64,000 nt of DNA from Myxococcales bacterium. GTDB taxonomy: Bacteria > Myxococcota_A > UBA9042. The first letter of the stretch is position 1; each line of letters begins with the position of its first letter. The position numbers and the translations under genes are program-made. Of this stretch, positions 4,854 to 23,991 are shown in pieces. The notes beneath the pieces are model-generated. The model saw only the letters and a list, made by a program, of their open reading frames with translations. It had not been told where the DNA came from and searched no databases. Where the stretch lies: NCBI GenBank assembly GCA_009692425.1, contig SHZF01000004.1, positions 10,175 to 74,174 of the forward strand, in the 5' to 3' direction.

Positions 4854-5837
4854 TCAGCGCCCGGCGGGAGGTGCGACGGCGCTTGCGTCGACCGGCCGCT
4901 TGGCGAGGACCATCTCGAGCGCAATCGCGATGACCCCGGCCGTGATGCCGATGTCGGCGACGTTGTAGACGGGCCAGCCATAGACGCGCTCGGCCCCGAC
5001 GACGAAGTTGTAGACGAAGTCGACGACGACGTGGAAGCGCAGGCGATCGACGAGGTTGCCCAGGGCTCCGCCGAGAATCGCGGCGAGGGCCCAGGACGAC
5101 CAGGCAGTGCCCATGCGCCCCTGCCACAGCGTCCAGCCCATGGCGAGGCTGGCGACCAGTGAGATCACGACGAAAAGCACGTGACGGAAACCAGCTGGTG
5201 CGGTCGCGAGGAAGCTCCAGGCGGCGCCAGGATTCTCGGCATACACATAGGAGAAGTAGCCGTCGATCACCGAAATGGTGCGTTCTCGCAGCAGGTACGT
5301 CACCCCGGGCTCGCGCGGCGCGGTCGGGTCGGCGACGGTGCCGCGCGTCTGCACCGTGTGTGCGTCGAACAGGGACTGCACCGCCGCGGCGTCGACCCGC
5401 CACGCCTTTGCGGCGACCTCGGCGAGCGACTGCCCGACGTCCTGTTGGCGGACCCAGGCGCGGCGCGGCGCCGGAAAGCCAGAGCCCTGCAACGCGGTCA
5501 GGTCGAGCCCGACATCTTCGGCCTGGACCGCGCTGCTGGCGGCACGGCCCGCCCACTTGTGAGCCCGCACGACGAGACCGTTGCGCACCGCAGCGGCAAA
5601 TTCGCCAGCGGAGACGCCGCGCCGGGCGAACGCAGCAGCCACGGTGTGGTCCTCCGGTTGGGCGCCGGCGGGGACGGCGAGCGGGTGGACGACGTTGGCG
5701 AGCGCCTCGATGGCCCACTGCTTGGACCACAGATCGAGGCCCAGGGTCAGCGCGACGCAGGCGAACAGCAGGGTGCGGGCAGGCGGTGGCGACGACATCG
5801 AGACTCCTGCCCAGCGTGCGCGGCGCAGTCGGTTCAC
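4854..5837 (-). CDS. lspA: Lipoprotein signal peptidase II (LspA). It is unusually long at 327 aa, with a ~150 aa insertion between conserved N- and C-terminal blocks. A later start (e.g. Met14, 5798) is possible.
   Basis: LDLWSKQWA near the N-terminus. GGALGNLVDRLRFHVVVDFVYNF...WPVYNVADIGITAGVIAIAL near the C-terminus, the signal peptidase II catalytic Asp blocks. The stop at 4854 lies 6 nt before the lgt start. Confidence 0.78.
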   Translation of the reverse strand: MNRLRRARWAGVSMSSPPPARTLLFACVALTLGLDLWSKQWAIEALANVVHPLAVPAGAQPEDHTVAAAFARRGVSAGEFAAAVRNGLVVRAHKWAGRAASSAVQAEDVGLDLTALQGSGFPAPRRAWVRQQDVGQSLAEVAAKAWRVDAAAVQSLFDAHTVQTRGTVADPTAPREPGVTYLLRERTISVIDGYFSYVYAENPGAAWSFLATAPAGFRHVLFVVISLVASLAMGWTLWQGRMGTAWSSWALAAILGGALGNLVDRLRFHVVVDFVYNFVVGAERVYGWPVYNVADIGITAGVIAIALEMVLAKRPVDASAVAPPAGR

Positions 5838-6035
5838 CGGCCCGACAACCCGACTGCCCTGGGGGAGATTCCGGGTCCGCGAAAGGGGGCGGGATTGTGC
5901 GGGCGGCGTCGGGCGCCGTCAACGAGATGCTGTCCCCCGACCGCCGCCTTCGGCGCATTTTGTCGTTGCCGTCGTCGGTTGGCGGTTCGACGCACCCGGT
6001 GTACGCCTTCACCGCCAACCTCCTAGGCGCCTAGA

Positions 6036-6059
6036 ACTGAACAAGAATTCGGCGTTCAG
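6036..6059. promoter_or_regulatory. Perfect 6-bp inverted repeat CTGAAC-N12-GTTCAG (contains GAATTC) in the divergent lspA / 6179-gene intergenic region; candidate operator.
   Basis: Read directly: ctgaacaagaattcggcgttcag. It sits in a local AT-richer patch of an otherwise GC-rich intergenic region. Confidence 0.3.
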
Positions 6060-6178
6060 GGAAGGTTGGCTGGTGCATCGGGGGGCCCGCGTGCTCGCTG
6101 CCGGTCGCACGACGGTTGCGTGCCGGACCGAGGCCCGCCTACGCTGTGCGTGCGCCCGGTGCGGTGCGGTGAACCTGC

Positions 6179-7030
6179 GTGACACGCGCCTCCCTCGATA
6201 CGGGCAGTCCTTGCCACCATGCAGGCGACGGCCCCCACTGCGTCCTGTGCGGCGCGAACGCAGCCGGCCAGCGGGTCCCAGCCGAGAACGCGCCGATTGC
6301 GGTGGATGCTGCCGTGCGCGGAGCCCTCGACGGTGGAGCGACGGCCATCGTGCTGCGCGGTGGCGACCTGCTGCAGCGCCCCGACGCGCTCGACATGCTG
6401 GCCCGGGCGACGCAGTTCGGGGCACGCGACATCGAAGTGTGGACGGCGGGCCGGGCCTTGGCGCGGGCCGGCGCGGCCGAGGCAGTGCGGGCGGCCGGCG
6501 TGACTCGTGTCGCCATCCCCCTGCACGGCGACACGGCGGCGGCCCACGATTGGGTGGTGGGGCAGGCAGGTGCCTTCCAGCAAGCGCTCGCGGCGCTGAA
6601 GCGGGCGCGCGCTGCCGGTCTGCGCACGACGGTGCTCGCGTCGGTCGTGCGTCCGACGTACCGCCAGTTAGGCGGACTCGTGCAGAAGGCGCTGGCGCTG
6701 CAGGTCGATGGTTTCCGCTTCATCCGGGTCGATGGGACGGAGCGCGAGCGCAATCCCCTGCTCGCGCCGCCGGCGCTGGCGGGTCCGTGGGTGGCGAGCG
6801 CTGTCGTGCGAGCCGAGGCCGCACGCCGGCGAGTCGCCATCGAGGGGTTGCCTGCGTGCGTGCTCGGAACTGCCGCCGCGCACATCGAAACGGGCCTCAG
6901 CGGCTCCGGCGAGCAGGGGCCGCCGTGCGCCACCTGCACATGGCGCGCGCGCTGTGCCGGCATGCCGCCGCTTGCCGTGGTCGCGCACGGGTGGACCGCA
7001 ATCGAAGCCCGCCGGGATGTGCCGCACTGA
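6179..7030 (+). CDS. Radical-SAM-like protein with a noncanonical Cys spacing (C-x8-C-x2-C instead of CxxxCxxC) and a Cys-rich C-terminus; GTG start.
   Basis: SPCHHAGDGPHCVLCG at the N-terminus. IVLRGGDLLQRPD resembles the GGEPLL(R)xD SAM-binding block of the MoaA/PqqE type. C-terminal CVLG...CATCTWRARC. Strong GC3 bias in this frame supports coding. Confidence 0.55.
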   Translation: MTRASLDTGSPCHHAGDGPHCVLCGANAAGQRVPAENAPIAVDAAVRGALDGGATAIVLRGGDLLQRPDALDMLARATQFGARDIEVWTAGRALARAGAAEAVRAAGVTRVAIPLHGDTAAAHDWVVGQAGAFQQALAALKRARAAGLRTTVLASVVRPTYRQLGGLVQKALALQVDGFRFIRVDGTERERNPLLAPPALAGPWVASAVVRAEAARRRVAIEGLPACVLGTAAAHIETGLSGSGEQGPPCATCTWRARCAGMPPLAVVAHGWTAIEARRDVPH

Positions 7031-7274
7031 CGGGCGGGAGTCGCGCGCCTCCGGTATCGGCAACCGAAACGCCCATAGAAGCAACAATCTCGCTGGCGGG
7101 GCTTGCAATCCGCACGGTCTGGACCCCATCCTGCAAGGCGCGCAATCTGCGGTCGCCCGATCGGGTCGGCCGCAGCGAACCCCGGAGCCGTCCCCCGGCC
7201 GATCGGTTCGCAGCGCCAGTCCGCAGCGAGCGGCCCACCCGGTGCCGCCGCGCGACCTTGGGACGGAGCCAGTC

Positions 7275-9281
7275 ATGACGAGCGTCTCGCCGCCACAACC
7301 TCCGCTGCCGGGCGACTCGGCCTCGGGCAGCATCGATATCGCGGCCCTGGTGGCTTCGGGCCTGCTCACGCGCGATGAAGCCCGCGCGCTGGAACACGCC
7401 CAGCAGGCCGAGACCGGTGCGGGCAGCCTCGTGCGAATGGAGGCTCTGCCGGAAACGGGAGGAGGCGGCGATCAGAAAGACGCGGTGAAGGAAACCGCGA
7501 TGAAGCACAAGCGCCACTGGGTACGCGTGACCCGTGTGTGCAACCAGCGCTGCACGTTCTGCCTGGATTCGATGAACCAGGACGGCTCGATGGTCGACGT
7601 CGAGTCGCTCAAGGCCTACATCCTGCTCGGCCGCCGCATGGGCCGCGAGCGCCTGATCCTGTCGGGCGGCGAAGCGAGCGTGCACCCGCAGTTCATCGAT
7701 CTGATCCGCTACGGCCGCCAGGTCGGCTATGACTGGGTGCAGACCGTCACCAACGGCATGATGTTCAGCTACAAGCGGTTCGCGCAGGCGGCGGCGGACG
7801 CGGGCCTCAACGAGGCGACGGTCTCGATGCACGGCCACACCGCCCACTTGCACGACAAGCTGACCGGCACGCCGGGCGCCTTCGTGACGGGCGTCAAGGG
7901 GATGCAGAACCTGCAGGCCACCGGCCAGGTCGTCGTCAACGTCGATGTCGTGATCAACAAGCAGAACTACAAGGCGCTGCCTGAGATCATCGAGTACTAC
8001 CACGACCGGCTGGGCATTCGGGAATTCGATCTGCTGCACATCATTCCGTTCGGCCGTGGCTTCGACGAGCACCGCCACTCGCTGTTTTTCGACCTCAACG
8101 ACGCCGTTCCGTATTTCCGCAAGGCTTTCGCGTGGTCGCAGAAGCCGGGCGTCTACCTGTGGACGAATCGCCTGCCGGTGACGTACCTGGAGGGCAACGA
8201 GAAGCTCATCCAGGACCCGCACAAGTTGTTCAGCGAGTTCGATGGCGGGCGGCACAATTTCGAGGGCTTCCTGCGGCGCGGGCTCAAGCCCGACTGCCAC
8301 GGCGAGCGCTGCGACTACTGCTTTCTCGATGGGCCGTGCCGCCAGACGATGTTCCCGTACCGCACGATGCTGGAGGCGGGCTCGTTCCCGGCCGTGCGAC
8401 TCGATGCGCGCCACGTCTGGCAGGGCACCGAGGCGCGCGCCAAGTTCGAGAGCCAGCGACCGCAGCGGGTGAAGCTGACCGCCCGCGACGCCGAAGAAGC
8501 TGCCGGCGCGTTGGATCGCCTGCCGTTTGCCGGCGCGGACGTCACCGTCGAGTTGGCGGCGGGCGCCGCGACGACCGCCCTGCACGGACTGCCCCAGGTG
8601 CGGCGCTTTGCTGTGGCCACCGTGGCCGACGCCGCCCGCATTCTGCAAGGCCCGGATGCCGTGCCCGCGCCGCACGAAGTCGAGGTCCGACTCGACCAGC
8701 CATTGGCCGCATGGCTGCTGGAACATGCCGAACTGGTGGCGCAATGGGGCAAGCGACTGGTGCTGACGCTGCGCACCCACGAATACCTGTCGGAGTCGCA
8801 GGCCACCGACCCGGACCCGGCGTCCTTGCGCGCACTCGCGGCGCTGGGGGCGCGCACGAAGAACGTGCCGAAATGCATGACGGGGACCGCAGCCGAGCCC
8901 CACGACCATCAGGTACTCGACGCCACCTTGCTCGACGGCGCCGGGCACCTCGACCTCGACCGCTACGTCAACCACTTCGTGGTCGAGGAGTACTTCGCCA
9001 AATCGCTGCGCTGCGGCCGCTGCGCCGAGGTCGATCGCTGCCACGGGGTGCACGTCAACTACGTGCGTAACCATGGCTTTGCGGTCATGGCCCCGCTCGA
9101 CGAAGCGGGCCTGCCGCTAGCGGACGCCGAGAGCTTCGACGACCTCGCGAAGAAGGTCGCCGATGCCACCGCCCGCCGCGAAAAGCGCGAGCGCGACAAG
9201 CTGGTCGGCATGCACCGGCCGCGGCTGCTGGAACCCACCGGTCTCGCGATCGGCCGGGTCGAAGAGACCGCAGGAACCTGA
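7275..9281 (+). CDS. Radical SAM enzyme, 668 aa, with a 75-aa N-terminal extension and a long C-terminal extension carrying SPASM-like Cys clusters. An alternative internal start at 7500 (MKHKRHW) has a good RBS.
   Basis: CNQRCTFC (CxxxCxxC), ILSGGEASVHPQF (GGE motif), HGHTAHLHDKLTGTPG, then CHGERCDYCFLDGPC and CGRCAEVDRCHG. The 6708 start of the track ORF is rejected, since the upstream part is an Arg-rich frame artefact. Codon GC3 bias begins at 7275. Confidence 0.85.
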   Translation: MTSVSPPQPPLPGDSASGSIDIAALVASGLLTRDEARALEHAQQAETGAGSLVRMEALPETGGGGDQKDAVKETAMKHKRHWVRVTRVCNQRCTFCLDSMNQDGSMVDVESLKAYILLGRRMGRERLILSGGEASVHPQFIDLIRYGRQVGYDWVQTVTNGMMFSYKRFAQAAADAGLNEATVSMHGHTAHLHDKLTGTPGAFVTGVKGMQNLQATGQVVVNVDVVINKQNYKALPEIIEYYHDRLGIREFDLLHIIPFGRGFDEHRHSLFFDLNDAVPYFRKAFAWSQKPGVYLWTNRLPVTYLEGNEKLIQDPHKLFSEFDGGRHNFEGFLRRGLKPDCHGERCDYCFLDGPCRQTMFPYRTMLEAGSFPAVRLDARHVWQGTEARAKFESQRPQRVKLTARDAEEAAGALDRLPFAGADVTVELAAGAATTALHGLPQVRRFAVATVADAARILQGPDAVPAPHEVEVRLDQPLAAWLLEHAELVAQWGKRLVLTLRTHEYLSESQATDPDPASLRALAALGARTKNVPKCMTGTAAEPHDHQVLDATLLDGAGHLDLDRYVNHFVVEEYFAKSLRCGRCAEVDRCHGVHVNYVRNHGFAVMAPLDEAGLPLADAESFDDLAKKVADATARREKRERDKLVGMHRPRLLEPTGLAIGRVEETAGT

Positions 9282-9312
9282 TCGGCACGAACGCGAGGAG
9301 GCAGGGTCCGCC

Positions 9313-10539
9313 ATGGCGAACATCGGCTACATCCAGATGGTGCGCCACTGCAACCAGAACTGCGGGTTCTGCTCGAATCCGGAGACGCCGTTCTTCCATG
9401 ATCTCGAACAGGTCCACCGCATCGTCGACGACTTCGTGGTGCGCGGCTACTTCGGCGTGATCCTGACGGGCGGCGAGCCGACGTTGTCGCCCATCCTGCC
9501 CGATGCCATTCGCTATGCGCGCGCCCAGGGCCTGCACGTGCGCATGATCACGAACGGGCAGAAGCTCGCGGACCCGGCGTACTGCGACACGGTGTGGCAG
9601 GCGGGGCTGCAGCACGTGCACGTGAGCATCCACAGCCACAAGCACAAGCTCGAGGACTTCCTGACCGGCACGCCGGGCTCGCTGGACTGGGCCGAAAAGG
9701 CGTTGGCGAACCTCGCCAAGACCGACATCACCGTCAACATCAACACGGTGATCAACCGCTACAACTGCGACCACCTGCACGAGAACATCGAGTGGTTCAT
9801 CGAGCACTTCCCGTTCATCCGGCACTTCGTCTGGAACAATCTCGACCCCTCGATCGGCCGGGCGACGACGAACAACTACTTCACGCCCAAGCTCAAGGAC
9901 CTCGAAGTCTCGCTGCACAAGGCGATGCGGCGGCTGCACGAGACGGGGCGCTCCTTCCGCGTCGAGCGCGTGCCGCTGTGCTACATGACTGAGTTTGCCC
10001 ACTGTTCGACGGAGACGCGCAAAATCGTGAAGTCCGAGGAGCGCATCGTCCACTTCCTCGATCAAAAGGGCACCGTACGGCAGACGGAATGGGGGCACTT
10101 GTACGCCGACGTGTGCGAGACGTGCACATTGCGCTCGGTGTGTGGCGGCCTGTTCGATCGAGGCGATGCCTACGACCCTGCGGAGTTGAGTCCCGTGTTC
10201 GTCGATCCGCGGCCGATCGTGCAGCGCATCGTCGACGATCTGCAGTCAGACCCGGCGTGGCGGCGCGAGAAATTCAAGAACCTCGCGACCCTGCCGTCGC
10301 CGCATCAGGGCCAGCGCTACCGACCGGGCAAGGTGCAGGCGCCCACCGGCGAGCGCCTGGTCGAGCCGAGCCGTGACCCGAAAAAACACCAGGACCCGAC
10401 GGCGCGCGACTGGCACCCCGCGGACGATGAACAGGACGCCGATTTTGGCCTTTTGGTGCCGGCTGAGACCGAGTCTGAGCGCGCCGCCGCCCCTGGCCGC
10501 GTGCCCTTGGACCGGCTGGCGGCGGAACGGGCGCCTTGA
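9313..10539 (+). CDS. Radical SAM enzyme, 409 aa; paralog of the preceding gene; disordered ~90 aa C-terminal tail.
   Basis: MANIGYIQMVRHCNQNCGFC, ILTGGEPTL, HSHKHKLEDFLTGTPG (same H-x-H-x3-L-x2-LTGTPG block as the 7275 gene), CETCTLRSVCGG. Confidence 0.85.
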   Translation: MANIGYIQMVRHCNQNCGFCSNPETPFFHDLEQVHRIVDDFVVRGYFGVILTGGEPTLSPILPDAIRYARAQGLHVRMITNGQKLADPAYCDTVWQAGLQHVHVSIHSHKHKLEDFLTGTPGSLDWAEKALANLAKTDITVNINTVINRYNCDHLHENIEWFIEHFPFIRHFVWNNLDPSIGRATTNNYFTPKLKDLEVSLHKAMRRLHETGRSFRVERVPLCYMTEFAHCSTETRKIVKSEERIVHFLDQKGTVRQTEWGHLYADVCETCTLRSVCGGLFDRGDAYDPAELSPVFVDPRPIVQRIVDDLQSDPAWRREKFKNLATLPSPHQGQRYRPGKVQAPTGERLVEPSRDPKKHQDPTARDWHPADDEQDADFGLLVPAETESERAAAPGRVPLDRLAAERAP

Positions 10540-10680: not shown

Positions 10681-11199
10681 ATGAGCGAACATTCGATCGA
10701 GACCTTCGACGCCGCTGCGGGCCGCATGACGCTGGCGCTCGACACCGGGCTGTATCCGCTCGAGGTCGTCTACGGCGCGGCCTACATCTTCATCGACCGG
10801 GCGTTCGTGCTGCTCGACCGCGAAGGGGAATCGGGCCAAGGCCGCTACCTCGTGCACCTGCGCACCAAGCAGGGGGCCGACGAGACGAAGCTGCGCGCGC
10901 TGTCCGGCGAGTTCGGCAACGAGCTGCTGAGCCAGGCGTTGCGGCGCAAGGTGGTCAAGGCGAACCAGAAGATCATCGAGGAGATCACGACGCAGGCGAT
11001 CGCGGGGGCAGCAGGCGGCGCGTTGCCGACGGACTTCCTGGGCGGTGCCGACGACGGCCTCGACTTTCTCGATGACCCGCTCGGCATCGCGGTGCCGTGG
11101 GAAGAGAAGTTCAAGAAGAAGAAGCCCGATGCCGCCGACCCGACCAGTGCCGCGGCCATCGCCGACGCCGCCGGTGGTACGGGCGAGGCCAAGCCATGA
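10681..11199 (+). CDS. Hypothetical 172-aa protein: structured N-terminal ~110 aa, then an acidic/Gly-Ala-rich low-complexity tail. Candidate precursor or scaffold of the radical SAM cassette.
   Basis: Complete ORF with coding-like composition. Its stop TGA (11197-11199) overlaps the ATG (11196-11198) of the next ORF in an ATGA. Confidence 0.55.
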   Translation: MSEHSIETFDAAAGRMTLALDTGLYPLEVVYGAAYIFIDRAFVLLDREGESGQGRYLVHLRTKQGADETKLRALSGEFGNELLSQALRRKVVKANQKIIEEITTQAIAGAAGGALPTDFLGGADDGLDFLDDPLGIAVPWEEKFKKKKPDAADPTSAAAIADAAGGTGEAKP

Positions 11200-11429
11200 C
11201 GGCCGCCGTCACGGTCAAGCTGCACCGGACGCTCTACATGCAGCAGGCACTCCAGGAGGCGGGCCAGGCCTTTGCGGAACTCGCCTCGTTCGAGATCGTG
11301 CGCGACGGCGAGTACTACGCCGTGCACATCGCCGACATCGACGCCGAAGTCGAGGGTGATCTGGTCGCTGAGTTCTGCAACCACGCGCTGGTCCACACGT
11401 GGAACCGCAAACGGAAAACCGTCGCATGA
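11196..11429 (+). CDS. Hypothetical 77-aa protein (MTAAVTVKLHRTLYMQQALQEAGQAFAELASFEIVRDGEYYAVHIADIDAEVEGDLVAEFCNHALVHTWNRKRKTVA). Possible small partner/RRE-like or HxsD-like accessory protein.
   Basis: ATGA overlap at both ends (11196/11199 and 11426/11429). The track's longer ORF 11097..11429 has an Arg-rich N-terminus that I reject. Confidence 0.5.
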   Translation: MTAAVTVKLHRTLYMQQALQEAGQAFAELASFEIVRDGEYYAVHIADIDAEVEGDLVAEFCNHALVHTWNRKRKTVA

Positions 11430-12925
11430 GCTACCTCGCCGGCCTGAACCTCGACGATGTCCCCGCCGATCGGCTCGTGCCGTTCAATCACCGTGCCGTG
11501 GGCGACCGCGTGCTGGTGTCGAACGATCTCGGCGATCACGTGTTCCTAGCGCCCGGCGAGTTCCGTGCGTTCGTGACGGGCCAGGTTGCCGCCGACACCG
11601 ATCTGTACGGCAAGCTGGCAGCGGCCAACCTGTTCGCGGCCAGCATCGACGTGGGCAAGCAGGCGGAACGCTGGCGCCGCAAGAAGCAGTACCTGTTCGT
11701 CGGGCCGACGCTGCACGCGTTCGTGTTGACGCACCGCTGCAACCACGGTTGCCAGTACTGCCACTCGTCGATCGTCGGCATGACGCGCACCGACACCGAC
11801 ATGCCGATCGATGTCGCCGAGCGCGCGGTCGACCTCGCCTTCCAGACCACGAGCCCGAGCCTGACGATCGAGTTCCAGGGCGGCGAGCCGTTGGCGAACT
11901 GGGAGGTGCTGCAGCACATCGTCGAGTATGCGCGGCAGAAGAATGCGCTCGCCGGCAAGAACCTGTCGTTCGCCCTCGTCACGAACTTGTCGCTGATGGA
12001 CGAGGAGCGGCTCGACTACTTGCTCGACCGCAAGGTGCAGTTGTGCACGAGCCTCGACGGCCCGGCAGACCTGCACAACAAGGTGCGCATCTATAAGGAA
12101 GGCGACAGCCACGACCTCGTGATGAAATGGATGGCGCGCATCAACGAGCGCTACGTCGAGATGGGCCTCGACCCGAACTTGTACCGTGTCGAAGCCTTGC
12201 CGACGATCACGCGCCACGCGCTGGCGCGGCCCAAGGACGTGGTGGACCAGTACGTGGCATTGGGCTGTCGCGCGGTGTTCCTGCGCAAGCTCGATCCGTT
12301 CGGGTTTGCCGCCCGCACGGCCGGCACGCTCGGCTATTCGATGGACGAGTTCCTCACGTTCTACCAGGAGGCGGTGGACTACATCATCGAACTCAACCGG
12401 CGCGGCGTGCAGGTGATGGAACGGCACGCCGGGATCATGCTGTCGAAAATCCTCAACGACGACGAGCCGAACTACCTCGACCTGCGCACGCCGGGCGGCG
12501 CGGTGACAGGGCAGCTCGGCTATGCGCCCGACGGCGGCGTGTACTCGTCGGACGAGGGGCGCTTCGTGGCGGCGATGGGCGACGAGATGTTCCGCATCGG
12601 CACGGTGACGGACACGTACCACCAGATCGTGACGAACGCGCAGACCCGCGCGCTCGTGATGGCGGGACTCAACGACGGGCAGCCCGACTGCGTGACGTGC
12701 GTGTACAAGCCCTGGTGCGGCCAGCAGGTGGAGTACAACTACAAGACGCAGGGCTCGATCCACGGCCGGATGCGCGACTCGGTGTGGTGCCGCAAGCACA
12801 AGACGATCTTCGACTACCTGATGGGCAAGCTGGCCAAGGCGAACGCCGAAGACCTCGCGATGTTCCAGCGCTGGACCACGAACCGAACGCTGGATCATTT
12901 CATGCAGGAACGCGGAGCGTTGTAG
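11426..12925 (+). CDS. Radical SAM / SPASM-domain maturase of the AtsB/anSME-like class, 499 aa, with a ~100-aa N-terminal domain before the Cys triad.
   Basis: CNHGCQYCH (CxxxCxxC), IEFQGGEPL, C-terminal CVTCVYKPWCGQ ... WCRK (SPASM-type). The start MSYLAGLNL at 11426 overlaps the previous stop. Confidence 0.85.
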   Translation: MSYLAGLNLDDVPADRLVPFNHRAVGDRVLVSNDLGDHVFLAPGEFRAFVTGQVAADTDLYGKLAAANLFAASIDVGKQAERWRRKKQYLFVGPTLHAFVLTHRCNHGCQYCHSSIVGMTRTDTDMPIDVAERAVDLAFQTTSPSLTIEFQGGEPLANWEVLQHIVEYARQKNALAGKNLSFALVTNLSLMDEERLDYLLDRKVQLCTSLDGPADLHNKVRIYKEGDSHDLVMKWMARINERYVEMGLDPNLYRVEALPTITRHALARPKDVVDQYVALGCRAVFLRKLDPFGFAARTAGTLGYSMDEFLTFYQEAVDYIIELNRRGVQVMERHAGIMLSKILNDDEPNYLDLRTPGGAVTGQLGYAPDGGVYSSDEGRFVAAMGDEMFRIGTVTDTYHQIVTNAQTRALVMAGLNDGQPDCVTCVYKPWCGQQVEYNYKTQGSIHGRMRDSVWCRKHKTIFDYLMGKLAKANAEDLAMFQRWTTNRTLDHFMQERGAL

Positions 12926-13071
12926 ATGGCGGCACGCACGAGAAACACGCCGCTGCGGTTTGAACCGATGCGCGGGGGCGTGCTAGCATGGTGCGTTCAT
13001 GCAACGCGCAGTCGGCCGGGTACCTCCGCCCCGTCGGCATGACGCGGCCGGGCCTGCGGGAGCCCTTCGCC

Positions 13072-16000
13072 ATGCGCCGATTCTGCGACCGTGCCCGAAT
13101 CCGCCCGTGGCGCCTTGCGCTCGCGTGGCTGGCGTGGGCGGCTGCGTGCACCGAAGAACCCTTGCAGCAAGGGTCGCTCGACGCGATTGGCGCCGACACG
13201 CGCGGAACCGGCGCCGACGCGGCCCCAGACACCGCGACGGTCGATGCCAAGCTGACGGACGCGGCCAGCGACGCCAAGTCCGACGCCGCGAACGACACGA
13301 AAACCGACGAGAAGACGGACAGCGCGGGCCCCGACAGCGCGATCGACAACGGCGCCGACGGCCTGCTGGACACGGCGCCCACCGACGATGCGGACGGGAT
13401 CGTCGATGAATTCGCTGCCGATCAGGACGGACCAGACAGCGCTGGCACCGATGCGGACGCTGCGGGCACCGTGGACGCCGGCGCGGGAGACGCGCCTCCC
13501 AACGTCAAGAGCGTGCATTCGAATGCGTGCACCGCGGCCAGCGACTGCCTGATCCCATGTGCATCGGGCAACTGCGTGGCGGGCACGTGCAGCTATCAGC
13601 CCAAAGGCAAGGGCTGCGTGGCCGACCTCGGCGGCGGCAAGGTGGGCTGCTTCGGCCCCGGCGACACGAGCGACGACAAGCCCTGCCTCGTGTGCCAGCC
13701 GTTGGTGTCGAGTACGGCGCTGACGACGGCGCTGTGGGTGAATGGCCTCGACGGCGAGCCGGGACTGCAGTTCGCCGACACCGCGGGCGCCGGCATCGGC
13801 TGGGGATTCAGCGACAAGAAGTCGAAGTCGGGCGGCAAGTCGCTGTGGTTCGGCGACCCCAAGACAGGCAACTACGCGATAGGCAAGGCGGTCGGCGGCA
13901 CGGCGACCTTGCCGGAGACGAAGGTGCCGCAGTTCAGCGGCACGCAGCCCAAGGTCGCGTTCTGGCTGTGGCTCGACACCGAGGAGTTCGACGGCCACGA
14001 CGTGCTGACGCTCGGCGTGCTCGAAGGCGGAGCCACGAAGGTCCTGTGGACGTCGGACGCGATCAAGGGCACCACGGGTGGCGCATGGCAGCGCATCGAG
14101 GCCGAACTCGTGGGCTACGGTGGCAAGACGGTGGCGCTGCAGTTCGGCTTCGACTCAAAGGACGAGGTCGCCAACACGTTCAGTGGCCCCTTCCTCGACG
14201 ACGTGGCCGTGCTGTCGGGCTGCTGCGCCGGGGCCGCGGATTGCGACGACGGCAACGCGTGCAGCGACGACAGTTGCGCGGCGGGAGCGGGCGGCCTGCC
14301 CCTGTGCAGCCACGCCAAGAAGGCCGGGTGCTGCTCGACGTCGGGCGACTGCGACGACAAGGTGTTGTGCACGTTCGATCTGTGCTCCGGGCCGGGCGGC
14401 ACGTGCAGCCACAACGCAAAGCCCGGCTGTTGCCTGACCGACAACGGCTGCGACGATGGCAACGCGCTGACGATCGACAAGTGCGTGGCTTCGAAGTGCC
14501 TGATCATCGACACCGCGTGCAAGTCGGACGCCGACTGCAAGACGAACGATCCGTGCCAGAAGGGGTCGTGCCAGGCCGGAATCTGCGCGTTCCAATCGAC
14601 GTGCTGCATCGCCGACAGCGAGTGCGACGACTTCAACCCGTGCACGATCGACGGCTGCGACAAGGGCAAATGCGTCACCACGGCATCGACGGTGCCGGGC
14701 TGCTGCTCGCCCCAGCCACTTTTCAACCAGTTCGGCAGCAGCGACGAGGGCTGGACGTCGGGCCCGGCGTCGCCCCAAAACAACGACTGGCATTGGAAGG
14801 CGCTGCCGTCCGCAGTCAGCCCGCCGGGCGCCCTGCACTTTGGATTGAAAGACAAAGACATGGGGCTTACGGCCAGCCAGCCGCAGTCCAAGATCACGAC
14901 GGCGAGCCCGCCGATCACGCTGCTGCCCGGCAAGGAAGTGACGTTCAAACTCTGGTACATGTCGGACATGACGGCCGCCAGTGGCAACGTGCGGGTGTTC
15001 GCGGTGGTCGACGGCAAGGAGGTGACGTTCGGCTACCTGAGCCTGAACACGAGCAAGAAGTGGACGACGTTCGGCCCGTATGACCTCTCGCCGGCGATGG
15101 GCAAGACGATCCAGATCAAGCTGGAGATGACGCTGACACCCGTTGGCTCGGTCACGGGCACCGGGCTGTGGGTCGACGACTTCGAGGTGAATTCGACGTG
15201 TCAGGCCAAGAAGTGCGCGGCCTCGGGCACCTGCGGCATCGGTGCGATGCCATGCGTGGCCGGCGTGTGCACGGACGGTCAGTGCACGTACCCGAACGCC
15301 TGCTGCGTCACGAGTGCCGACTGCGCCGACCAGAACCTGTGCACAAGCGACGTGTGCGTGAACACGAAGTGCCAGTTCAACCCGATCGCGAAGTGCTGCA
15401 TGGGCAGCGGCGACTGTGCCGACGGCAACCCGTGCACGCAAGACATCTGCCCAGCGCCCGGCCAGATCTGCCAGTGGCCGCCGGTGCCCGGCTGCTGCCT
15501 GTCGTCGGTCGAATGCAATGACAGCAACGCGTGCACGAAGGACGGCTGCATCCTGAACAAGTGCGTCAACGAGAACACGTGCTGCAAGGTCGACAAGGAC
15601 TGCGACGACAGTGAGACAAAGTGCACGGTCGACAAGTGCGTGGCCCAGATCTGCACGCACACGTCGACGGGCGCGGCCGGTTGCTGCTCGCCGATCGTGT
15701 GGGAGAACGACTTCGATCAGGGCGACCTCAAGGGCATCAAGGTGCAGAACTCCGCTGGCGCCAAGGGCTGGAACCACTGGCCGAACGCGCAGTTGTCGAA
15801 GTCGGGCAAGGGCGTGCTGTACTATGGCGATCCCGCGGTCGGCAATTTCGACTTCAGCTTGTCGAGCGGCACGGCCAAGACGCTGGCGATCCAGTTGCCG
15901 GTGTCGACGCCGTCGCACATGACGTTCTGGCTCTACATGGACACCGAGCAGGGCCCGCCCTACGACTCGCTCGCCGTGCGCGTCTACGTCGATGGCGCCC

Positions 16001-16191
16001 AAAATCCGGTGTGGGAAAAGAACCAGAACGGCTACACGGTGCTGAAATGGACCGAGATCAAGATCGACCTCGCGAAGTGGGCCGGCAAGTCCATCGAGAT
16101 CGAGTTCTACTTCAACACGGTCGATTCGGTGGGCAACAGCGGCAAGGGCGTCTTCGTCGATGACCTGAAGGTCGTGACGGCGTGTCCATGA
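13072..16191 (+). CDS. Giant secreted lipoprotein, 1039 aa. It has a D/A/T-rich linker, then several MAM-like beta-sandwich modules separated by C-x-D-x-N-x-C-T-x-D-x-C cysteine-rich repeats.
   Basis: MRRFCDRARIRPWRLALAWLAWAAAC signal and lipobox. Repeats CDDGNACSDDSC, CDDKVLCTFDLC, CDDGNALTIDKC, CDDFNPCTIDGC, CADQNLCTSDVC, CADGNPCTQDIC, CNDSNACTKDGC. Modules with LWFGDP / FWLWLDTE / GPFLDDVAV...C and a C-terminal GKGVFVDDLKVVTAC (MAM-like ...DD..(V/I)...C ending). Confidence 0.85.
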   Translation: MRRFCDRARIRPWRLALAWLAWAAACTEEPLQQGSLDAIGADTRGTGADAAPDTATVDAKLTDAASDAKSDAANDTKTDEKTDSAGPDSAIDNGADGLLDTAPTDDADGIVDEFAADQDGPDSAGTDADAAGTVDAGAGDAPPNVKSVHSNACTAASDCLIPCASGNCVAGTCSYQPKGKGCVADLGGGKVGCFGPGDTSDDKPCLVCQPLVSSTALTTALWVNGLDGEPGLQFADTAGAGIGWGFSDKKSKSGGKSLWFGDPKTGNYAIGKAVGGTATLPETKVPQFSGTQPKVAFWLWLDTEEFDGHDVLTLGVLEGGATKVLWTSDAIKGTTGGAWQRIEAELVGYGGKTVALQFGFDSKDEVANTFSGPFLDDVAVLSGCCAGAADCDDGNACSDDSCAAGAGGLPLCSHAKKAGCCSTSGDCDDKVLCTFDLCSGPGGTCSHNAKPGCCLTDNGCDDGNALTIDKCVASKCLIIDTACKSDADCKTNDPCQKGSCQAGICAFQSTCCIADSECDDFNPCTIDGCDKGKCVTTASTVPGCCSPQPLFNQFGSSDEGWTSGPASPQNNDWHWKALPSAVSPPGALHFGLKDKDMGLTASQPQSKITTASPPITLLPGKEVTFKLWYMSDMTAASGNVRVFAVVDGKEVTFGYLSLNTSKKWTTFGPYDLSPAMGKTIQIKLEMTLTPVGSVTGTGLWVDDFEVNSTCQAKKCAASGTCGIGAMPCVAGVCTDGQCTYPNACCVTSADCADQNLCTSDVCVNTKCQFNPIAKCCMGSGDCADGNPCTQDICPAPGQICQWPPVPGCCLSSVECNDSNACTKDGCILNKCVNENTCCKVDKDCDDSETKCTVDKCVAQICTHTSTGAAGCCSPIVWENDFDQGDLKGIKVQNSAGAKGWNHWPNAQLSKSGKGVLYYGDPAVGNFDFSLSSGTAKTLAIQLPVSTPSHMTFWLYMDTEQGPPYDSLAVRVYVDGAQNPVWEKNQNGYTVLKWTEIKIDLAKWAGKSIEIEFYFNTVDSVGNSGKGVFVDDLKVVTACP

Positions 16192-18452: not shown

Positions 18453-18521
18453 GGGCCGAAGTGCTCGCCAGCGGGGATCGGGACCTCGCAGGCAGCCTCA
18501 GCGTGTGTGTGGAGGGATGTG

Positions 18522-21500: not shown

Positions 21501-22163
21501 AAGAAGTGCGTGCCGGCGGTTCCCGACGTGTGCAAGAAGTACTACTGCTCGGCCCAGACCGTTGCCAACCAGCTGTCGTTTGCGTGCAAGGCCGACTTCA
21601 AGCCCGGCCCGACCTGCTGTTCTTCGTCGGTGGCGCTGGCGGCGGAGACGTTCGAATCGGCCAAGCTCGGCGCCTGGGCGGGGTCTTGCAACAACACGCT
21701 CGTGAAGTGGCAGGCGTCGCCGCACAAGTACTTGGCTGGCCTGTACGAAGCCTACATGGGCAACCAGGAGAAGCAGAACTACGCCGACGGCACGTCCATT
21801 GTGGTGTGCAGCCTGACGTCGCCGCTGGTGACGCTCTCGTCGGACCTCAAAAAGGAGGCCTTCTTGCAGTTCAAGGCGTGGATCGACGTCGAGACGAACT
21901 CTTTCGAGAAGTTGCGGGTCGTGGCGACGACGTTTGCCGGAAACCAGAAGCTGACGAAGGTGATTTGGGACAAGGCGGTGGCCAAGGACATGACCTTGGC
22001 GGAGTACAAGATGGCGATCGAGAAGAAGATCAACGTCTCGGAATTCAAAGGAAAGGGCGCCGTGTCGTTCAGCTTCGAATTCGACTCCCTCGACGCCAAG
22101 AAAAACGCCGACTTCAAGGGCGTGTACCTCGACGACCTGACGGTGACTGAGCCGTGCCTGTAG
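18522..22163 (+). CDS. Giant lipoprotein paralog 3 (1213 aa): four MAM-like modules interleaved with Cys-rich repeats.
   Basis: GGAGG RBS 6 nt before ATG 18522; the track's GTG 18507 is an alternative. Signal LAGLGLLAAAVAC. Motifs HSLYFGNECGTYDSE, FWMWVDTQP, YEGIYLDDVGIETYC, CDDAKDCTVDAC, NIYEGAYIDNVHLTTVC, FKGVYLDDLTVTEPC. Confidence 0.85.
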   Translation: MVCNDPVGKGNLAACAQGARQFLAGLGLLAAAVACGDPVATAKTAPATPDTTDPDGGQDGTEPTDAPAVVDTAAPLDGDAAIEAKGPELTDAPDIQTAPDVGCLTDNQCVGAVPVTGCTVAVCQKGLCILGPKPGTCCDDAPCDDGVQCTKDKCDVATNTCQNAPIAGCCQNQKKYLNVGFEQAPVGVAATYEGFVQSPDPKDASYPNGNVKWQVETRRAHSGTHSLYFGNECGTYDSEMKGALACKESAVSLALYTALKSSEVQIPAGEAALLSFWMWVDTQPVLTQLHWTQTQKGENDCSPKCGIGATCAANANGKTECVKQPQKAGTCKVPCDPGTTCVDVGGGNSACVNESDVMTVRINGAVKPTLTSTEFDKSTKGQWKHFVVNLAEYAGKSVQILWEFKTNTNRNAYEGIYLDDVGIETYCVKKDEKSEGFASCDEKTACPDDKKECSADVCTPFTNLKVQGLCLYDKVANCCAGSIDCDDAKDCTVDACNKAVGKPTGSCSHKPDSNKEQCCKAEKLFGDNFEAGSLAGWATVLSNSQQVLWQLHKSGGTGGGAAMYFGNAAQTNYDDPTIKPNGPKGRVCSVKKVKLTDTAAYNVAKFQLKMETEWSGKKKESYVNPAVVQGQPVEKVDYLNVEVRVAGVVQTVWSSDSVYGTTEGQFLPVTVDLDKFAGKEVELCFYFDAGDSAANAAKGITIDDVQIAVACEKEVCTVAEHCAAECDAVLDTPSCEAGKCVCTKIPGKCKDDASCDDKDSCTDQACKLGKCEYTMKSPTCCAAKTPYQESFDAGVAGAALPTGWKVTGLPGTALNGKPYDQTIKWNITDLKAKSPQFSLYFGNNGTYNAGASAPGGLARSPEVTLPANGTTLLTFALFLSTEWDPNPKDPTKVFKAPPPGIVVDRLRVGLNDPKQADAAKANAWLWDSYAIEGTTAGNWQVVVVAVPDAWKGKTAKLQFEFDAGHDNNNIYEGAYIDNVHLTTVCDVPECVEDKKCVPAVPDVCKKYYCSAQTVANQLSFACKADFKPGPTCCSSSVALAAETFESAKLGAWAGSCNNTLVKWQASPHKYLAGLYEAYMGNQEKQNYADGTSIVVCSLTSPLVTLSSDLKKEAFLQFKAWIDVETNSFEKLRVVATTFAGNQKLTKVIWDKAVAKDMTLAEYKMAIEKKINVSEFKGKGAVSFSFEFDSLDAKKNADFKGVYLDDLTVTEPCL

Positions 22164-23138: not shown

Positions 23139-23283
23139 TTCCAGCGGCGGTCACGAATCCCGCGCGGCAGACGTACCCGGGCGGCAGCGTCAAGTTCTGT
23201 GAAGTGCAGAGTTCAGTCCACGCGCCGGTATGCTACAAAGCGTGCAGCATGCGGCGCGACCGCAGCCCGACCGGAGTCGCAAC

Positions 23284-23985: not shown

Positions 23986-23991
23986 GCACCC

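What the first reader, a model, noticed from the sequence alone, without database searches (positions are those of the whole stretch)
7275..10539. Tandem paralogous radical SAMs sharing an H-x-H-x3-L-x2-LTGTPG block; the first has an in-frame 75-aa leader-like N-terminus and a split SPASM
The adjacent radical SAM genes share a block I do not recognise from common families: HGHTAHLHDKLTGTPGAF in one and HSHKHKLEDFLTGTPGSL in the other.

The first gene has two unusual extensions. At the N-terminus, 75 aa (MTSVSPPQPPLPGDSASGSIDIAALVASGLL...) precede the Cys triad, with strong codon bias, yet a good internal RBS + ATG sits at 7500. Leader-like translation or precursor fusion is therefore possible. 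At the C-terminus it carries ~300 extra residues in which SPASM-like Cys pairs (CHGERCDYCFLDGPC ... CGRCAEVDRCHG) are separated by an inserted domain.
Basis: seen in the sequence. Interest (0 to 1): 0.6.

Follow-up and report, generated by a model that had tools for sequence, protein, structure and literature searches.

The report
HxsC-like radical SAM paralogs, myxobacterial operon
The two genes are real, related radical SAM enzymes, and they belong to a myxobacterial version of the known His-Xaa-Ser peptide-maturation system, so most of their "odd" features are family traits rather than a leader fusion or a split SPASM domain.

Summary
Two adjacent radical SAM (rSAM) genes, 7275-9281 and 9310-10539, are true paralogs (hhalign E=2e-32).

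The interpretation mostly fails.
- **Shared block.** It is the ordinary beta4/alpha4 block of this rSAM class (BlsE: SLDG...HD..R..G.F), with His replacing Asp.
- **N-terminus.** The 75-aa extension is genuine protein. E73 and A75, just upstream of the internal ATG, are near-invariant in 99 orthologs, while Met76 occurs in only 10.
- **"Split SPASM".** The first Cys group is the HxsC-type C-terminal motif. The second sits in a 250-aa domain specific to this family. Neither matches SPASM.

Context explains the genes. A third, degenerate paralog lies upstream (6179-7030). HxsD, an HxsD-like protein and HxsB follow downstream. All three paralogs score best against NCBIfam HxsC4/HxsC, but far below cut-off.

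Relatives occur in 389 species-level genomes, those inspected being myxobacterial. Sister lineages carry (HGS)n-W HxsA4 precursors beside HxsB, up to six clustered paralogs, and a natural fusion of the two genes. No HxsA4 lies in this window or near close relatives, so the substrate is unknown.

Verdict: a new variant of a known kind, of moderate interest.

The parts
6179..7030 (+). rSAM0: a third, upstream paralog (283 aa). It has a non-canonical C12-x8-C21-x2-C24 (6212-6250), the block PLHGDTAAAHDWVVGQAGAF (6518-6577) and C-terminal CATCTWRARC (6926-6955).
   Evidence: GC3 frame analysis. tblastn conservation at 35-45% identity in close relatives. NCBIfam hits include HxsC at 48 bits (top hit TIGR04053, 60 bits), all below cut-off. 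Ortholog alignment shows C-x8-C-x2-C in most and loss of the Cys in about 10. Coordinates verified.
7275..9281 (+). rSAM1: the long HxsC4-like radical SAM protein (668 aa).
   Evidence: Pfam PF04055 59.3 bits. NCBIfam best hits HxsC4 102.9 bits (cut-off 500) and HxsC 84.7 (cut-off 267.9). More than 120 orthologs. 389 genomes. AF2 pLDDT 87.8.
7275..7499 (+). N-terminal extension of rSAM1. It holds a clade-specific motif SIDIAALVASGLLTRDEARALE (7329-7394), a disordered acidic linker, then the KDxVKExA helix that runs across the internal ATG at 7500.
   Evidence: Conservation (motif present in 38 of 99 orthologs; E73 and A75 near-invariant; Met76 in 10 of 99). AF2 helices 22-27, 33-45 and 65-77. 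No Pfam hit.
7539..7562 (+). rSAM1 CX3CX2C (CNQRCTFC), the site of the SAM-binding [4Fe-4S] cluster.
   Evidence: Invariant C89, C93 and C96. Coordinates verified.
   Evidence: Aligned to BlsE and SkfB and to HxsC. S184, H186, D194 and L196 invariant; G187, H188, G198, G201, A202 and F203 at least 90% conserved in the 99-ortholog alignment. Strand 180-184 in the model.
8295..8339 (+). First Cys module C341-x4-C346-x2-C349-x5-C355, equivalent to the HxsC-type C-terminal auxiliary-cluster motif.
   Evidence: Aligns with C-x2-C-x5-C of rSAM2, rSAM0 and two canonical HxsC proteins. Invariant in 99 orthologs.
8358..8864 (+).
   Evidence: AF2 shows alternating strands and helices at pLDDT above 90. 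Foldseek against the PDB gives only weak TIM-barrel-like hits. No Pfam hit. A profile of residues 364-610 finds only 372 cluster representatives among 1.84 billion; every full-length hit carries it after about 300 or more residues, the rest are short fragments.
8874..9053 (+). Second Cys module C534 ... C580-x2-C583-x5-C589-x3-H593.
   Evidence: All four Cys invariant in 99 orthologs and H593 at least 90% conserved. Weak colinear hhalign matches to rSAM2's VPLC...CxxCx5CGG (E=0.05 and 0.005). This suggests, but does not prove, a duplicated module.
9310..10539 (+). rSAM2: the short, highly conserved HxsC-like radical SAM protein (409 aa). CX3CX2C at 9349-9372, block at 9625-9684, C273...C318-x2-C321-x5-C327 at 9979-10143.
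   Evidence: Pfam 70.4 bits. NCBIfam HxsC 98.6 and HxsC4 82.2 bits, both below cut-off. All orthologs start at M/V/L-ANIGY. Orthologs are 55-83% identical across the phylum.
10681..11199 (+). HxsD (172 aa) with a conserved C-terminal tail, ...DFLDDPLGIAVPWEEKFKKK.
   Evidence: NCBIfam TIGR03976 52.6 bits against cut-off 50. Tail conservation shown.
11196..11429 (+). HxsD-like small protein (77 aa). Its start and stop both overlap neighbouring genes as ATGA.
   Evidence: NCBIfam NF038315 HxsD_rel 63.3 bits against cut-off 41. ORF and overlaps seen. Conserved in relatives.
11426..12925 (+). HxsB radical SAM/SPASM maturase.
   Evidence: NCBIfam TIGR03978 502.4 bits against cut-off 370. 34-36% identity to annotated plasmid HxsB proteins.

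Best explanation
**What it is.** The two genes are the second and third of three tandem HxsC4-like radical SAM paralogs. They open a myxobacterial variant of the His-Xaa-Ser (HXS) maturation operon: rSAM0, rSAM1, rSAM2, HxsD, HxsD-like, HxsB.

**Shown.**
- The family assignments and the paralogy.
- Conservation of the CX3CX2C, GGE, beta4 block and C-terminal Cys motifs.
- That the N-terminal extension is real protein.
- The synteny.
- A natural rSAM2+rSAM1 fusion in another lineage.
- (HGS)n-W HxsA4 genes beside HxsB/HxsD in sister lineages.

**Inferred.**
- Each enzyme binds SAM on a [4Fe-4S] cluster and makes a 5'-deoxyadenosyl radical.
- The C-x2-C-x5-C module plus one more Cys holds an auxiliary cluster.
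- rSAM1 carries a second such module on a family-specific (beta/alpha) domain, giving eight conserved Cys plus one His.
- Together with the HxsD-type partner proteins and HxsB, the paralogs carry out successive modifications of a His/Ser-rich peptide or protein. This follows the model system, where HxsC binds HxsD.
- In this lineage the substrate gene is encoded elsewhere or differs from HxsA4.
- H186 replaces the Asp of the usual S-x-D-G motif at the end of beta4. Because that spot lies at the SAM/substrate pocket, it is likely to be a catalytic or binding adaptation of the family.
For: - **Family scans.** HxsD, HxsD_rel and HxsB pass their curated cut-offs, and rSAM1 and rSAM2 score best against HxsC4/HxsC.
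- **Motif alignments.** Canonical HxsC shares both the block and the terminal C-x2-C-x5-C-x-G-x-F. BlsE and SkfB share the block.
- **Paralogy.** hhalign E=2e-32.
- **Synteny.** In 22 close loci with full flanks, rSAM0 is present in 22, HxsD in 20, HxsB in 18 and rSAM2 in 17. Co-location persists in distant Polyangiales-type, Nannocystaceae (L049) and Sandaracinaceae loci and in Plesiocystis.
- **Precursors elsewhere.** Nine distant loci carry (HGS)n-W proteins, eight of them in loci that also hold HxsB and/or HxsD. The four representatives scanned pass the NCBIfam HxsA4 cut-off. One locus has a true HxsC4 at 600 bits.
- **Fusion.** A single 714-aa protein joins rSAM2 to an rSAM1-like enzyme, next to an aKG-HExxH peptide beta-hydroxylase.
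- **Experimental precedent.** In E. coli, HxsB, HxsC and HxsD are all required for HxsA maturation, and HxsC binds HxsD (PMC13128918).
- **N-terminus.**
Against: - No HxsA-type gene lies in the 64-kb window or within 10 kb in about 35 close relatives, so the substrate here is unknown.
- rSAM1 and rSAM2 score far below the HxsC and HxsC4 cut-offs.
- The closest solved relative, BlsE, acts on a small molecule, and neither protein has an RRE-like domain.
- In distant clades HxsB/HxsD lie within 10 kb in only about a third of loci.
- In some close relatives rSAM2 is missing from the locus, or unrelated genes separate it from rSAM1.
- The number and ligation of the auxiliary clusters are inferred from Cys counts only.
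Confidence: 0.62

Rival explanations
1. rSAM1 carries a fused leader or precursor-like N-terminus, or is alternatively translated from the internal ATG at 7500, and it has a SPASM domain split by an inserted domain.
For: - The extension has a conserved short helical motif followed by a disordered acidic linker.
- The clade that has this motif is also the clade without a nearby HxsA4 gene.
- The second Cys group reads C-x2-C-x5-C-x3-H, which resembles the SPASM core C-x2-C-x5-C-x3-C.
- Both ATGs have Shine-Dalgarno-like sequences.
Against: - Met76 is present in only 10 of 99 orthologs, while E73 and A75 just upstream are near-invariant.
- An HMM of the extension does not find HxsA4 leaders (E>=230).
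- The extension contains no His/Ser repeat.
- There is no Pfam SPASM hit and no SPASM or twitch structural match.
- The first Cys group aligns to the motif that ends HxsC, rSAM0 and rSAM2, none of which has an insert.
- The link between the motif and the missing HxsA4 rests on a single clade.
Confidence: 0.07
2. The paralogs are small-molecule or cofactor enzymes (BlsE-, AhbD- or NirJ-like, acting for example on a sugar nucleotide or tetrapyrrole). On this reading they merely sit next to HxsB/HxsD.
For: - The best solved homolog is BlsE (E=2e-16).
- AhbD, NirJ and MoaA rank next in NCBIfam.
- The genes sit in a housekeeping neighbourhood of cdsA, lgt, lspA, ribF and aroA in close relatives.
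- hemL and hemB lie next to the fusion gene in L085.
- rSAM2 is 55-83% identical across the phylum.
- No precursor is nearby in this clade.
Against: - The top family hits are always HxsC4/HxsC.
- Co-location with HxsD, HxsB and HxsA4 recurs in several divergent lineages and orientations.
- An aKG-HExxH peptide hydroxylase is the conserved neighbour in 10 loci and in L085.
Confidence: 0.2
3. The locus is an anti-phage defence system working like canonical HXS, with a matured periplasmic effector blocking DNA entry.
For: Canonical HXS is a defence system built from HxsA, B, C and D (PMC13128918). HxsB and HxsD here pass the same family models.
Against: - There is no HxsA effector and no peptidoglycan-binding domain protein in the operon.
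- Gene order differs from the D-B-C-A order seen in 99.6% of canonical systems.
- The locus appears vertically inherited, phylum-wide and chromosomal, in conserved housekeeping synteny, with no mobile-element or defence-island context.
- PADLOC gives only generic viperin-core hits.
- HxsA4 is a short (HGS)n-W peptide, unlike HxsA.
Confidence: 0.1

Closest known systems
HxsC, the His-Xaa-Ser system radical SAM maturase (NCBIfam TIGR03977), part of the HXS antiphage system (Nat Commun 2026, PMC13128918)
   Same: - Same rSAM core and the same beta4/alpha4 '...HD...GAF' block.
- Same terminal LPxC...C-x2-C-x5-C-x-G-x-F module.
- Also encoded beside HxsB and HxsD.
   Different: - Scores of 85-99 bits against a cut-off of 268.
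- Three tandem paralogs here instead of a single gene.
- His in place of Tyr at the beta4 position.
- rSAM1 adds an N-terminal extension and a roughly 310-aa C-terminal region with a second Cys module.
- Gene order is C-like x3, D, D-like, B, not D-B-C-A.
- No HxsA.
- Found in Myxococcota, whereas 99.7% of canonical systems are in Pseudomonadota.
HxsC4 / HxsA4 / HxsD_rel (NCBIfam NF038332, NF038313, NF038315), the curated but unpublished 'type 4' His-Xaa-Ser set
   Same: - HxsC4 is the top hit for rSAM1 and for every other clustered paralog tested.
- HxsD_rel is matched above its cut-off in the window.
- HxsA4 and a true HxsC4 occur in sister myxobacterial loci that also carry rSAM1 orthologs.
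   Different: - rSAM0, rSAM1 and rSAM2 reach only 38-103 bits against a cut-off of 500, so they are separate paralog groups with no curated model.
- No HxsA4 lies in the window.
- No paper on the type 4 set was found.
BlsE, cytosylglucuronate decarboxylase (PDB 7VOB), and SkfB (PDB 6EFN), twitch-type radical SAM enzymes
   Same: They are the closest solved structures to the core: Foldseek E=7e-9 at 27% identity, phmmer E=2e-16. They share the block S-x-D-G...HD..R..G.F.
   Different: They have Asp where rSAM1 has His186. They have no counterpart to the rSAM1 C-terminal domain. BlsE acts on a nucleoside sugar.
SPASM-domain radical SAM maturases (anSME, PqqE, SuiB, CteB)
   Same: They also carry extra C-terminal Cys that should bind auxiliary Fe-S clusters. 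The C-x2-C-x5-C core is shared. HxsB in the same operon is a true SPASM-class maturase.
   Different: - No SPASM profile hit.
- No structural match for the C-terminal region.
- The Cys pattern is 4 + 1 + 3, with a conserved His where SPASM has its fourth core Cys.
- A roughly 170-residue (beta/alpha) domain lies between the groups.

Membership tests
Radical SAM superfamily (PF04055) | CX3CX2C cluster motif, GGE motif and a Pfam score above the gathering threshold | tested here: met
   rSAM1 has CNQRCTFC and SGGE at 59.3 bits. rSAM2 has CNQNCGFC and TGGE at 70.4 bits. The threshold is 29.5. rSAM0 has only C-x8-C-x2-C.
HxsC (TIGR03977) | Whole-protein score at or above the curated cut-off of 267.9 bits | tested here: not met
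   rSAM1 84.7, rSAM2 98.6 and rSAM0 48.0 bits.
HxsC (TIGR03977) | Encoded with HxsB and HxsD | tested here: met
   HxsD scores 52.6 against 50 and HxsB 502.4 against 370. Both lie on the same strand immediately downstream.
HxsC (TIGR03977) | An adjacent His-Xaa-Ser repeat precursor (HxsA) | tested here: not met
   No H-x-S repeat ORF in any frame of the window. No tblastn match to HxsA4. None within 10 kb in close relatives.
HxsC4 (NF038332) | Whole-protein score at or above 500 bits | tested here: not met
   rSAM1 102.9, rSAM2 82.2 and rSAM0 38.3 bits. A true member in L059 scores 600.2.
SPASM domain (PF13186 / TIGR04085) | Profile match and the seven-Cys pattern C-x9-15-G-x4-C ... C-x2-C-x5-C-x3-C ... 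C | tested here: not met
   No SPASM hit at E<=0.01. The pattern is C-x4-C-x2-C-x5-C ... C ... C-x2-C-x5-C-x3-H. Foldseek on the C-terminal model finds no SPASM or twitch structure.
Twitch-domain radical SAM (NF033640) | Score at or above 170 bits, with a single auxiliary cluster in a short C-terminal domain | tested here: inconclusive
   rSAM2 scores 38.2 bits, below cut-off. Its C273/C318/C321/C327 arrangement is compatible with one auxiliary cluster, but cluster binding cannot be tested here.
RiPP precursor or leader fused to its enzyme | N-terminal segment homologous to the system's leader or core peptide | tested here: not met
   An HMM of the extension against HxsA4 leaders gives E>=230, at background rank. 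There is no His/Ser repeat in residues 1-75.
Canonical HXS antiphage system | Four genes hxsD-B-C-A, with an HxsA effector carrying a peptidoglycan-binding domain and HxS repeats | tested here: not met
   Order and content differ and no HxsA is present. Antiphage activity cannot be tested with these tools.

The most novel reading that the evidence does not exclude
The locus may represent a vertically inherited, phylum-wide myxobacterial pathway of 3-6 HxsC4-like radical SAM paralogs with HxsB and two HxsD-type partner proteins. On this reading the paralogs act in sequence on a His/Ser-rich peptide, (HGS)n-W in sister lineages, for a housekeeping purpose such as a peptide-derived cofactor or metal-binding product, not phage defence. 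rSAM1 would carry a previously undescribed class of auxiliary-cluster domain: a degenerate second (beta/alpha) unit with its own C...C-x2-C-x5-C-x3-H site. In the window's clade the precursor would have moved or been replaced. The conserved N-terminal motif of rSAM1, or the DPLGIAVPWEEKF tail of HxsD, might then act as a docking element or a substrate encoded on the enzyme itself.
Probability: 0.2. Interest if true: 0.7.

Novelty: new variant of a known kind. Interest (0 to 1): 0.45.

Why it matters
The chemistry of the His-Xaa-Ser system is unsolved. The one experimental paper reports a +8 Da change of unknown structure, made by HxsB, HxsC and HxsD.

A myxobacterial branch offers natural experiments on what each HxsC-type enzyme does:
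- The HxsC role is split among several conserved paralogs.
- One paralog has a degenerate cluster motif.
- One carries a new Cys-rich domain.
- Two are fused in some organisms.
- The precursor is a simple (HGS)n-W peptide in some lineages and absent nearby in others.

The branch also raises a question about the system's original role. HXS-type machinery that is chromosomal, vertically inherited and set among housekeeping genes may be ancestral and not defensive.

For annotation, three sizeable protein groups currently labelled "radical SAM protein", "PFL-activating enzyme" or "nitrite reductase" could be named and linked.

Tried and rejected
1. **Upstream ORF.** ORF 5581-7278, whose stop overlaps the 7275 ATG, has an Arg-rich shadow-frame composition. 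It is not a gene, so there is no translational coupling.
2. **HxsA in the window.** A regex for three or more H-x-S in all six frames found nothing. tblastn with nine distinct myxobacterial HxsA4 sequences (11 intact ORFs) gave only weak low-complexity hits.
3. **The MAM-domain proteins as substrate or partners.** The three large Cys-rich proteins downstream (12988-22163) are not conserved next to HxsB in relatives.
4. **Leader mimicry.** By eye, G-x-[IL]-T-R-x-[EQ]-A recurs in some HxsA4 leaders and in the rSAM1 extension. The HMM test placed HxsA4 leaders at background, so I rejected the idea as unsupported.
5. **N-terminal motif as a T2SSE_N/MshEN-like or other known domain.** No Pfam hit even at E<=10. 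The motif occurs nowhere else in the window.
6. **C-terminal half of rSAM1 as a duplicated rSAM unit.** hhalign gives only weak colinear matches at the Cys module (E=0.005 and 0.05) and nothing for the barrel. I keep this as a suggestion only.
7. **Small ORFs between rSAM1 and rSAM2 in relatives with larger gaps.** L032 holds two unrelated minus-strand genes there and no precursor.
8. **Promoter and terminator scan of the operon.** Nothing informative.
10. **Literature.** Nothing on HxsA4, HxsC4 or HGS repeats.

Full report
**Setting.** The window is about 70% G+C. A GC3-based frame analysis separates real genes from the many shadow ORFs. It supports a same-strand series:
- 6179-7030
- 7275-9281
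- 9310-10539
- 10681-11199
- 11196-11429, not flagged by the frame analysis; supported by its HxsD_rel match and its conservation in relatives
- 11426-12925

Three large Cys-rich secreted proteins follow. ORF 5581-7278, whose stop overlaps the ATG at 7275, is an Arg-rich shadow frame and not a gene.

**Checking the observation.**
- The first gene (rSAM1, 668 aa from 7275) has CNQRCTFC and SGGE. The second (rSAM2, 409 aa from 9310) has CNQNCGFC and TGGE.
- Both pass the Pfam Radical_SAM threshold.
- A profile-profile comparison of rSAM1 residues 76-360 with the rSAM2 family gives E=2e-32 over 271 columns at 29% identity. They are true paralogs across the whole rSAM2-length core, terminal Cys motif included.
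- The two quoted blocks lie at 7824-7883 and 9625-9684.
- The Cys groups CHGERCDYCFLDGPC and C534...RCGRCAEVDRCHGVH are real. All eight Cys are invariant in 99 orthologs and H593 is at least 90% conserved.

**The shared block.** It is not an unknown motif.
- phmmer against solved structures aligns rSAM1 'VSMHGHTAHLHDKLTGTPGAFVTGVKGM' with BlsE 'VSLDGGSAATHDVYRRSPGMFDNGLRGL' and SkfB 'ISIDGM-DNTHDQLRGRKGGFKESMNTI'.
- Canonical HxsC proteins taken from annotated plasmids read 'GIPIYAAAGHLHDYIVQSMGAF' and 'GVPLYGAMARDHDYHVQSRGAF' at the same place.
- In the AF2 model the block begins at the end of strand 180-184, the fourth strand of the core, and runs into helices 190-197 and 202-215.

So it is the beta4/alpha4 block common to the MoaA/PqqE/SkfB-type enzymes. 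From general knowledge of radical SAM structures, the S-x-D at the end of beta4 contacts the SAM ribose. That point is knowledge-based and was not tested here.

What is specific is His in place of Asp:
- H186 is invariant and H188 at least 90% conserved in rSAM1 orthologs.
- In rSAM2 orthologs the first position is H or Y, and the second His is kept only in the close clade.
- Canonical HxsC has Y.
- In rSAM0 orthologs the position is Y, F, L or W, and His appears only in this window.

The exact string LTGTPG is shared by the two paralogs only in this lineage.

**The N-terminus.**
- Among 99 orthologs the column of the internal Met76 reads V59, A24, M10, T5. K68, K72, E73 (98/99) and A75 (97/99), all upstream of it, are among the best-conserved residues.
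- All but one ortholog have at least 17 residues before W82. A start at 7500 would leave six.
- The model places residues 65-77 in a helix that leads into beta1.
- In 38 of 99 orthologs (the window's clade, about 60-77% identical) a further motif, [DE]-I-D-I-D-K-L-V-R-D-G-[ILV]-L-[TN]-R-D-E-A-x-A-L, is conserved. It is followed by a variable acidic linker.
- The motif has no Pfam match and occurs nowhere else in the window.

The extension is therefore real protein and the internal start is not supported. I tested whether it could mimic the leader of the system's precursor, described below. An HMM of the extension ranks HxsA4 leaders at background, E>=230.

**The C-terminal region.**
- The first Cys group aligns with the C-x2-C-x5-C-x-G motif that ends rSAM2, rSAM0 and canonical HxsC. 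rSAM1 lacks the upstream 'LPxC' Cys of those proteins and has C341 instead.
- After it comes a segment absent from the others. AF2 models it confidently as alternating strands and helices: pLDDT 87.8 for the whole protein and 93.5 for residues 296-612.
- That segment is followed by 'NVPKC534' and, 46 residues later, C580-x2-C583-x5-C589-x3-H593.
- Foldseek against the PDB matches only the core for the full model, to BlsE, GDGT-MAS, viperins, SkfB and MoaA. For the C-terminal model it gives only weak TIM-barrel-like hits (E about 5e-3, TM 0.3-0.45) and no SPASM or twitch domain.
- Pfam finds no SPASM domain and nothing in the insert.
- hhalign of residues 362-612 against the rSAM2 family gives two weak colinear matches. 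'ARTKNVPKC' pairs with 'FRVERVPLC' (E=0.05), and 'LLDGAG...RCGRCAEVDRCHG' pairs with 'FLDQKG...CETCTLRSVCGG' (E=0.005), with the same 45-46-residue spacing. This hints that the region is a degenerate duplicate of the HxsC-type unit, but it is not proven.
- A profile of residues 364-610 finds only 372 cluster representatives among 1.84 billion. Every full-length hit carries it after about 300 or more residues; the rest are short fragments.

"Split SPASM" is therefore not the right description. A better one is two HxsC-type Cys modules, the second carried on a family-specific domain.

**What the genes belong to.**
- NCBIfam places 10681-11199 in HxsD (52.6 bits against 50), 11196-11429 in the 'HxsD-like protein' family (63.3 against 41), and 11426-12925 in HxsB (502 against 370).
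- The two small genes overlap their neighbours by ATGA.
- rSAM1 and rSAM2 score best against HxsC4 and HxsC, but at 82-103 bits against cut-offs of 500 and 268.
- tblastn of the window proteins against related loci revealed a third paralog at 6179-7030. It has the same block (PLHGDTAAAHDWVVGQAGAF) and terminal CATCTWRARC, but a C-x8-C-x2-C motif. About ten orthologs have lost these Cys altogether.

**The known system.** The canonical HXS system was described in 2026 as an antiphage system of Pseudomonadota, with gene order hxsD-B-C-A.
- HxsC binds HxsD.
- All three enzymes and partners are needed to mature HxsA.
- HxsA acquires a +8 Da change on an SHRSS motif (PMC13128918).

**Distribution and context.**
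- Relatives of rSAM1 occur in 389 species-representative genomes. The 80 listed are myxobacterial by title, apart from MAGs with generic titles and some mislabelled ones. They include Archangium, Polyangium, Byssovorax, Nannocystaceae and Sandaracinaceae.
- In 22 close loci with full flanks, rSAM0 is present in 22, HxsD in 20, HxsB in 18 and rSAM2 in 17. Upstream synteny to cdsA, lgt and lspA is conserved.
- Distant loci hold up to six clustered paralogs, falling into at least ten further groups. All those tested score best against HxsC4.
- Nine distant loci encode small proteins ending in (HGS)n-W, with three tandem copies in L052. Eight of them also hold HxsB and/or HxsD, and the gene abuts HxsB in L052, L053, L070 and L073. 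The four representatives scanned pass the NCBIfam HxsA4 cut-off, at 59-111 bits against 55. One locus has a true HxsC4 at 600 bits beside HxsA4.
- In Plesiocystis pacifica the HxsD / 81-aa / HxsB trio follows an rSAM-methyltransferase fusion, 6.6 kb from the rSAM2 ortholog.
- A 714-aa protein in another lineage is a natural fusion of rSAM2 with an rSAM1-like enzyme. It is flanked by an rSAM0-like gene and by an aKG-HExxH peptide beta-hydroxylase (95 bits against 40). Orthologs of that hydroxylase sit beside rSAM1 in ten myxobacterial loci.

These data tie rSAM1 and rSAM2 to each other and to peptide modification.

**What remains open.**
- No HxsA-type gene is in the 64-kb window or within 10 kb in about 35 close relatives.
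- The three MAM-domain proteins downstream are not conserved partners.
- The substrate in this clade is therefore unknown. It may be encoded elsewhere or may differ from HxsA4.
- The small-molecule alternative cannot be excluded. It rests on BlsE being the closest solved relative and on the housekeeping neighbourhood.
- A defence role like canonical HXS seems unlikely. The locus shows vertical, phylum-wide, chromosomal conservation, lacks an effector, and gives only generic viperin-core hits in PADLOC.
- No paper on the HxsA4/HxsC4 branch was found.

**Verdict.** This is a new variant of a known kind. The features that remain uncharacterised are:
- the paralog array;
- the degenerate rSAM0;
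- the rSAM1-specific Cys-rich domain;
- the beta4 His;
- the missing precursor.

Interest is moderate.

Noticed in passing
Its cluster motif is C-x8-C-x2-C instead of CX3CX2C. About ten orthologs in related genomes have lost these Cys entirely, which suggests a non-catalytic 'pseudo-rSAM' partner.
   Followed up: partly
window 11008-11199 (+), C-terminal tail of HxsD: Myxobacterial HxsD is about 170 aa, against about 96 aa in canonical systems. It ends in an acidic stretch plus a strongly conserved motif, DFLDDPLGIAVPWEEKFKKK, kept even in Sandaracinaceae (EDPLGIAMSWEEKYKKK). Its function is unknown. It could be a docking motif.
   Followed up: partly
window 11196-11429 (+): A 77-aa HxsD-like gene whose start overlaps the HxsD stop and whose stop overlaps the HxsB start (ATGA both times). 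It is easy to miss because a longer shadow ORF (11097-11429) covers it.
   Followed up: yes
L052:17821-19165; also L053:13093-13437, L070:4514-4891, L073:20151-20417, L059:14349-14660, L063: Small HxsA4 proteins that end in long perfect (HGS)n repeats and a terminal Trp. Those in L052, L053, L070 and L073 abut HxsB; L059's lies beside HxsC4 and HxsD. L052 has three tandem copies and L063 has two. Two different leader types are visible: KFPxxKKRxxxFLxSEEGKITxxQA and LPSFxADVxGTLSxxQ.
   Followed up: partly
L085:9127-13428 (GCA_027326945.1); proteins P0152, P0154: A natural fusion of rSAM2 with a short rSAM1-like enzyme (714 aa). It is preceded by an rSAM0-like gene with a canonical CX3CX2C and followed by an aKG-HExxH peptide beta-hydroxylase. 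hemL, hemB and a cob(I)alamin adenosyltransferase lie just upstream on the other strand. The genome is about 50% G+C, so it is a different lineage.
   Followed up: partly
window 12988-22163 (+): Three consecutive large paralogous secreted or lipoprotein-like proteins (1067, 756 and 1218 aa). They are rich in Cys-rich repeats and carry InhA-like MAM / choice-of-anchor J domains. They are not conserved downstream of HxsB in related genomes.
   Followed up: partly
window 4854-5837 (-): A lipoprotein signal peptidase (LspA) of 327 aa. Only residues about 185-315 match LspA models. About 140 extra residues sit between the first membrane helix and the conserved core. This longer form is conserved in 18 related loci.
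   Followed up: no
window 9111-9281 (+), rSAM1 residues 613-668: A basic C-terminal tail...SFDDLAKKVADATARREKRERDKLVGMHRPR. The aligned orthologs that keep it are those carrying the N-terminal motif. It is modelled with low confidence.
   Followed up: no
L001, L003, L018, L019, L029, L030 (record titles): Several MAG records that carry this myxobacterial operon, in full synteny with Myxococcales MAGs, are titled 'uncultured Enterobacteriaceae bacterium' or 'Klebsiella pneumoniae'. These are probably mislabelled submissions.
   Followed up: no
window 23203-25179 (+): An OmpR-family response regulator and a BaeS/CpxA-like histidine kinase pair lie downstream of the MAM-domain genes. There is no evident link to the rSAM operon.
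   Followed up: no
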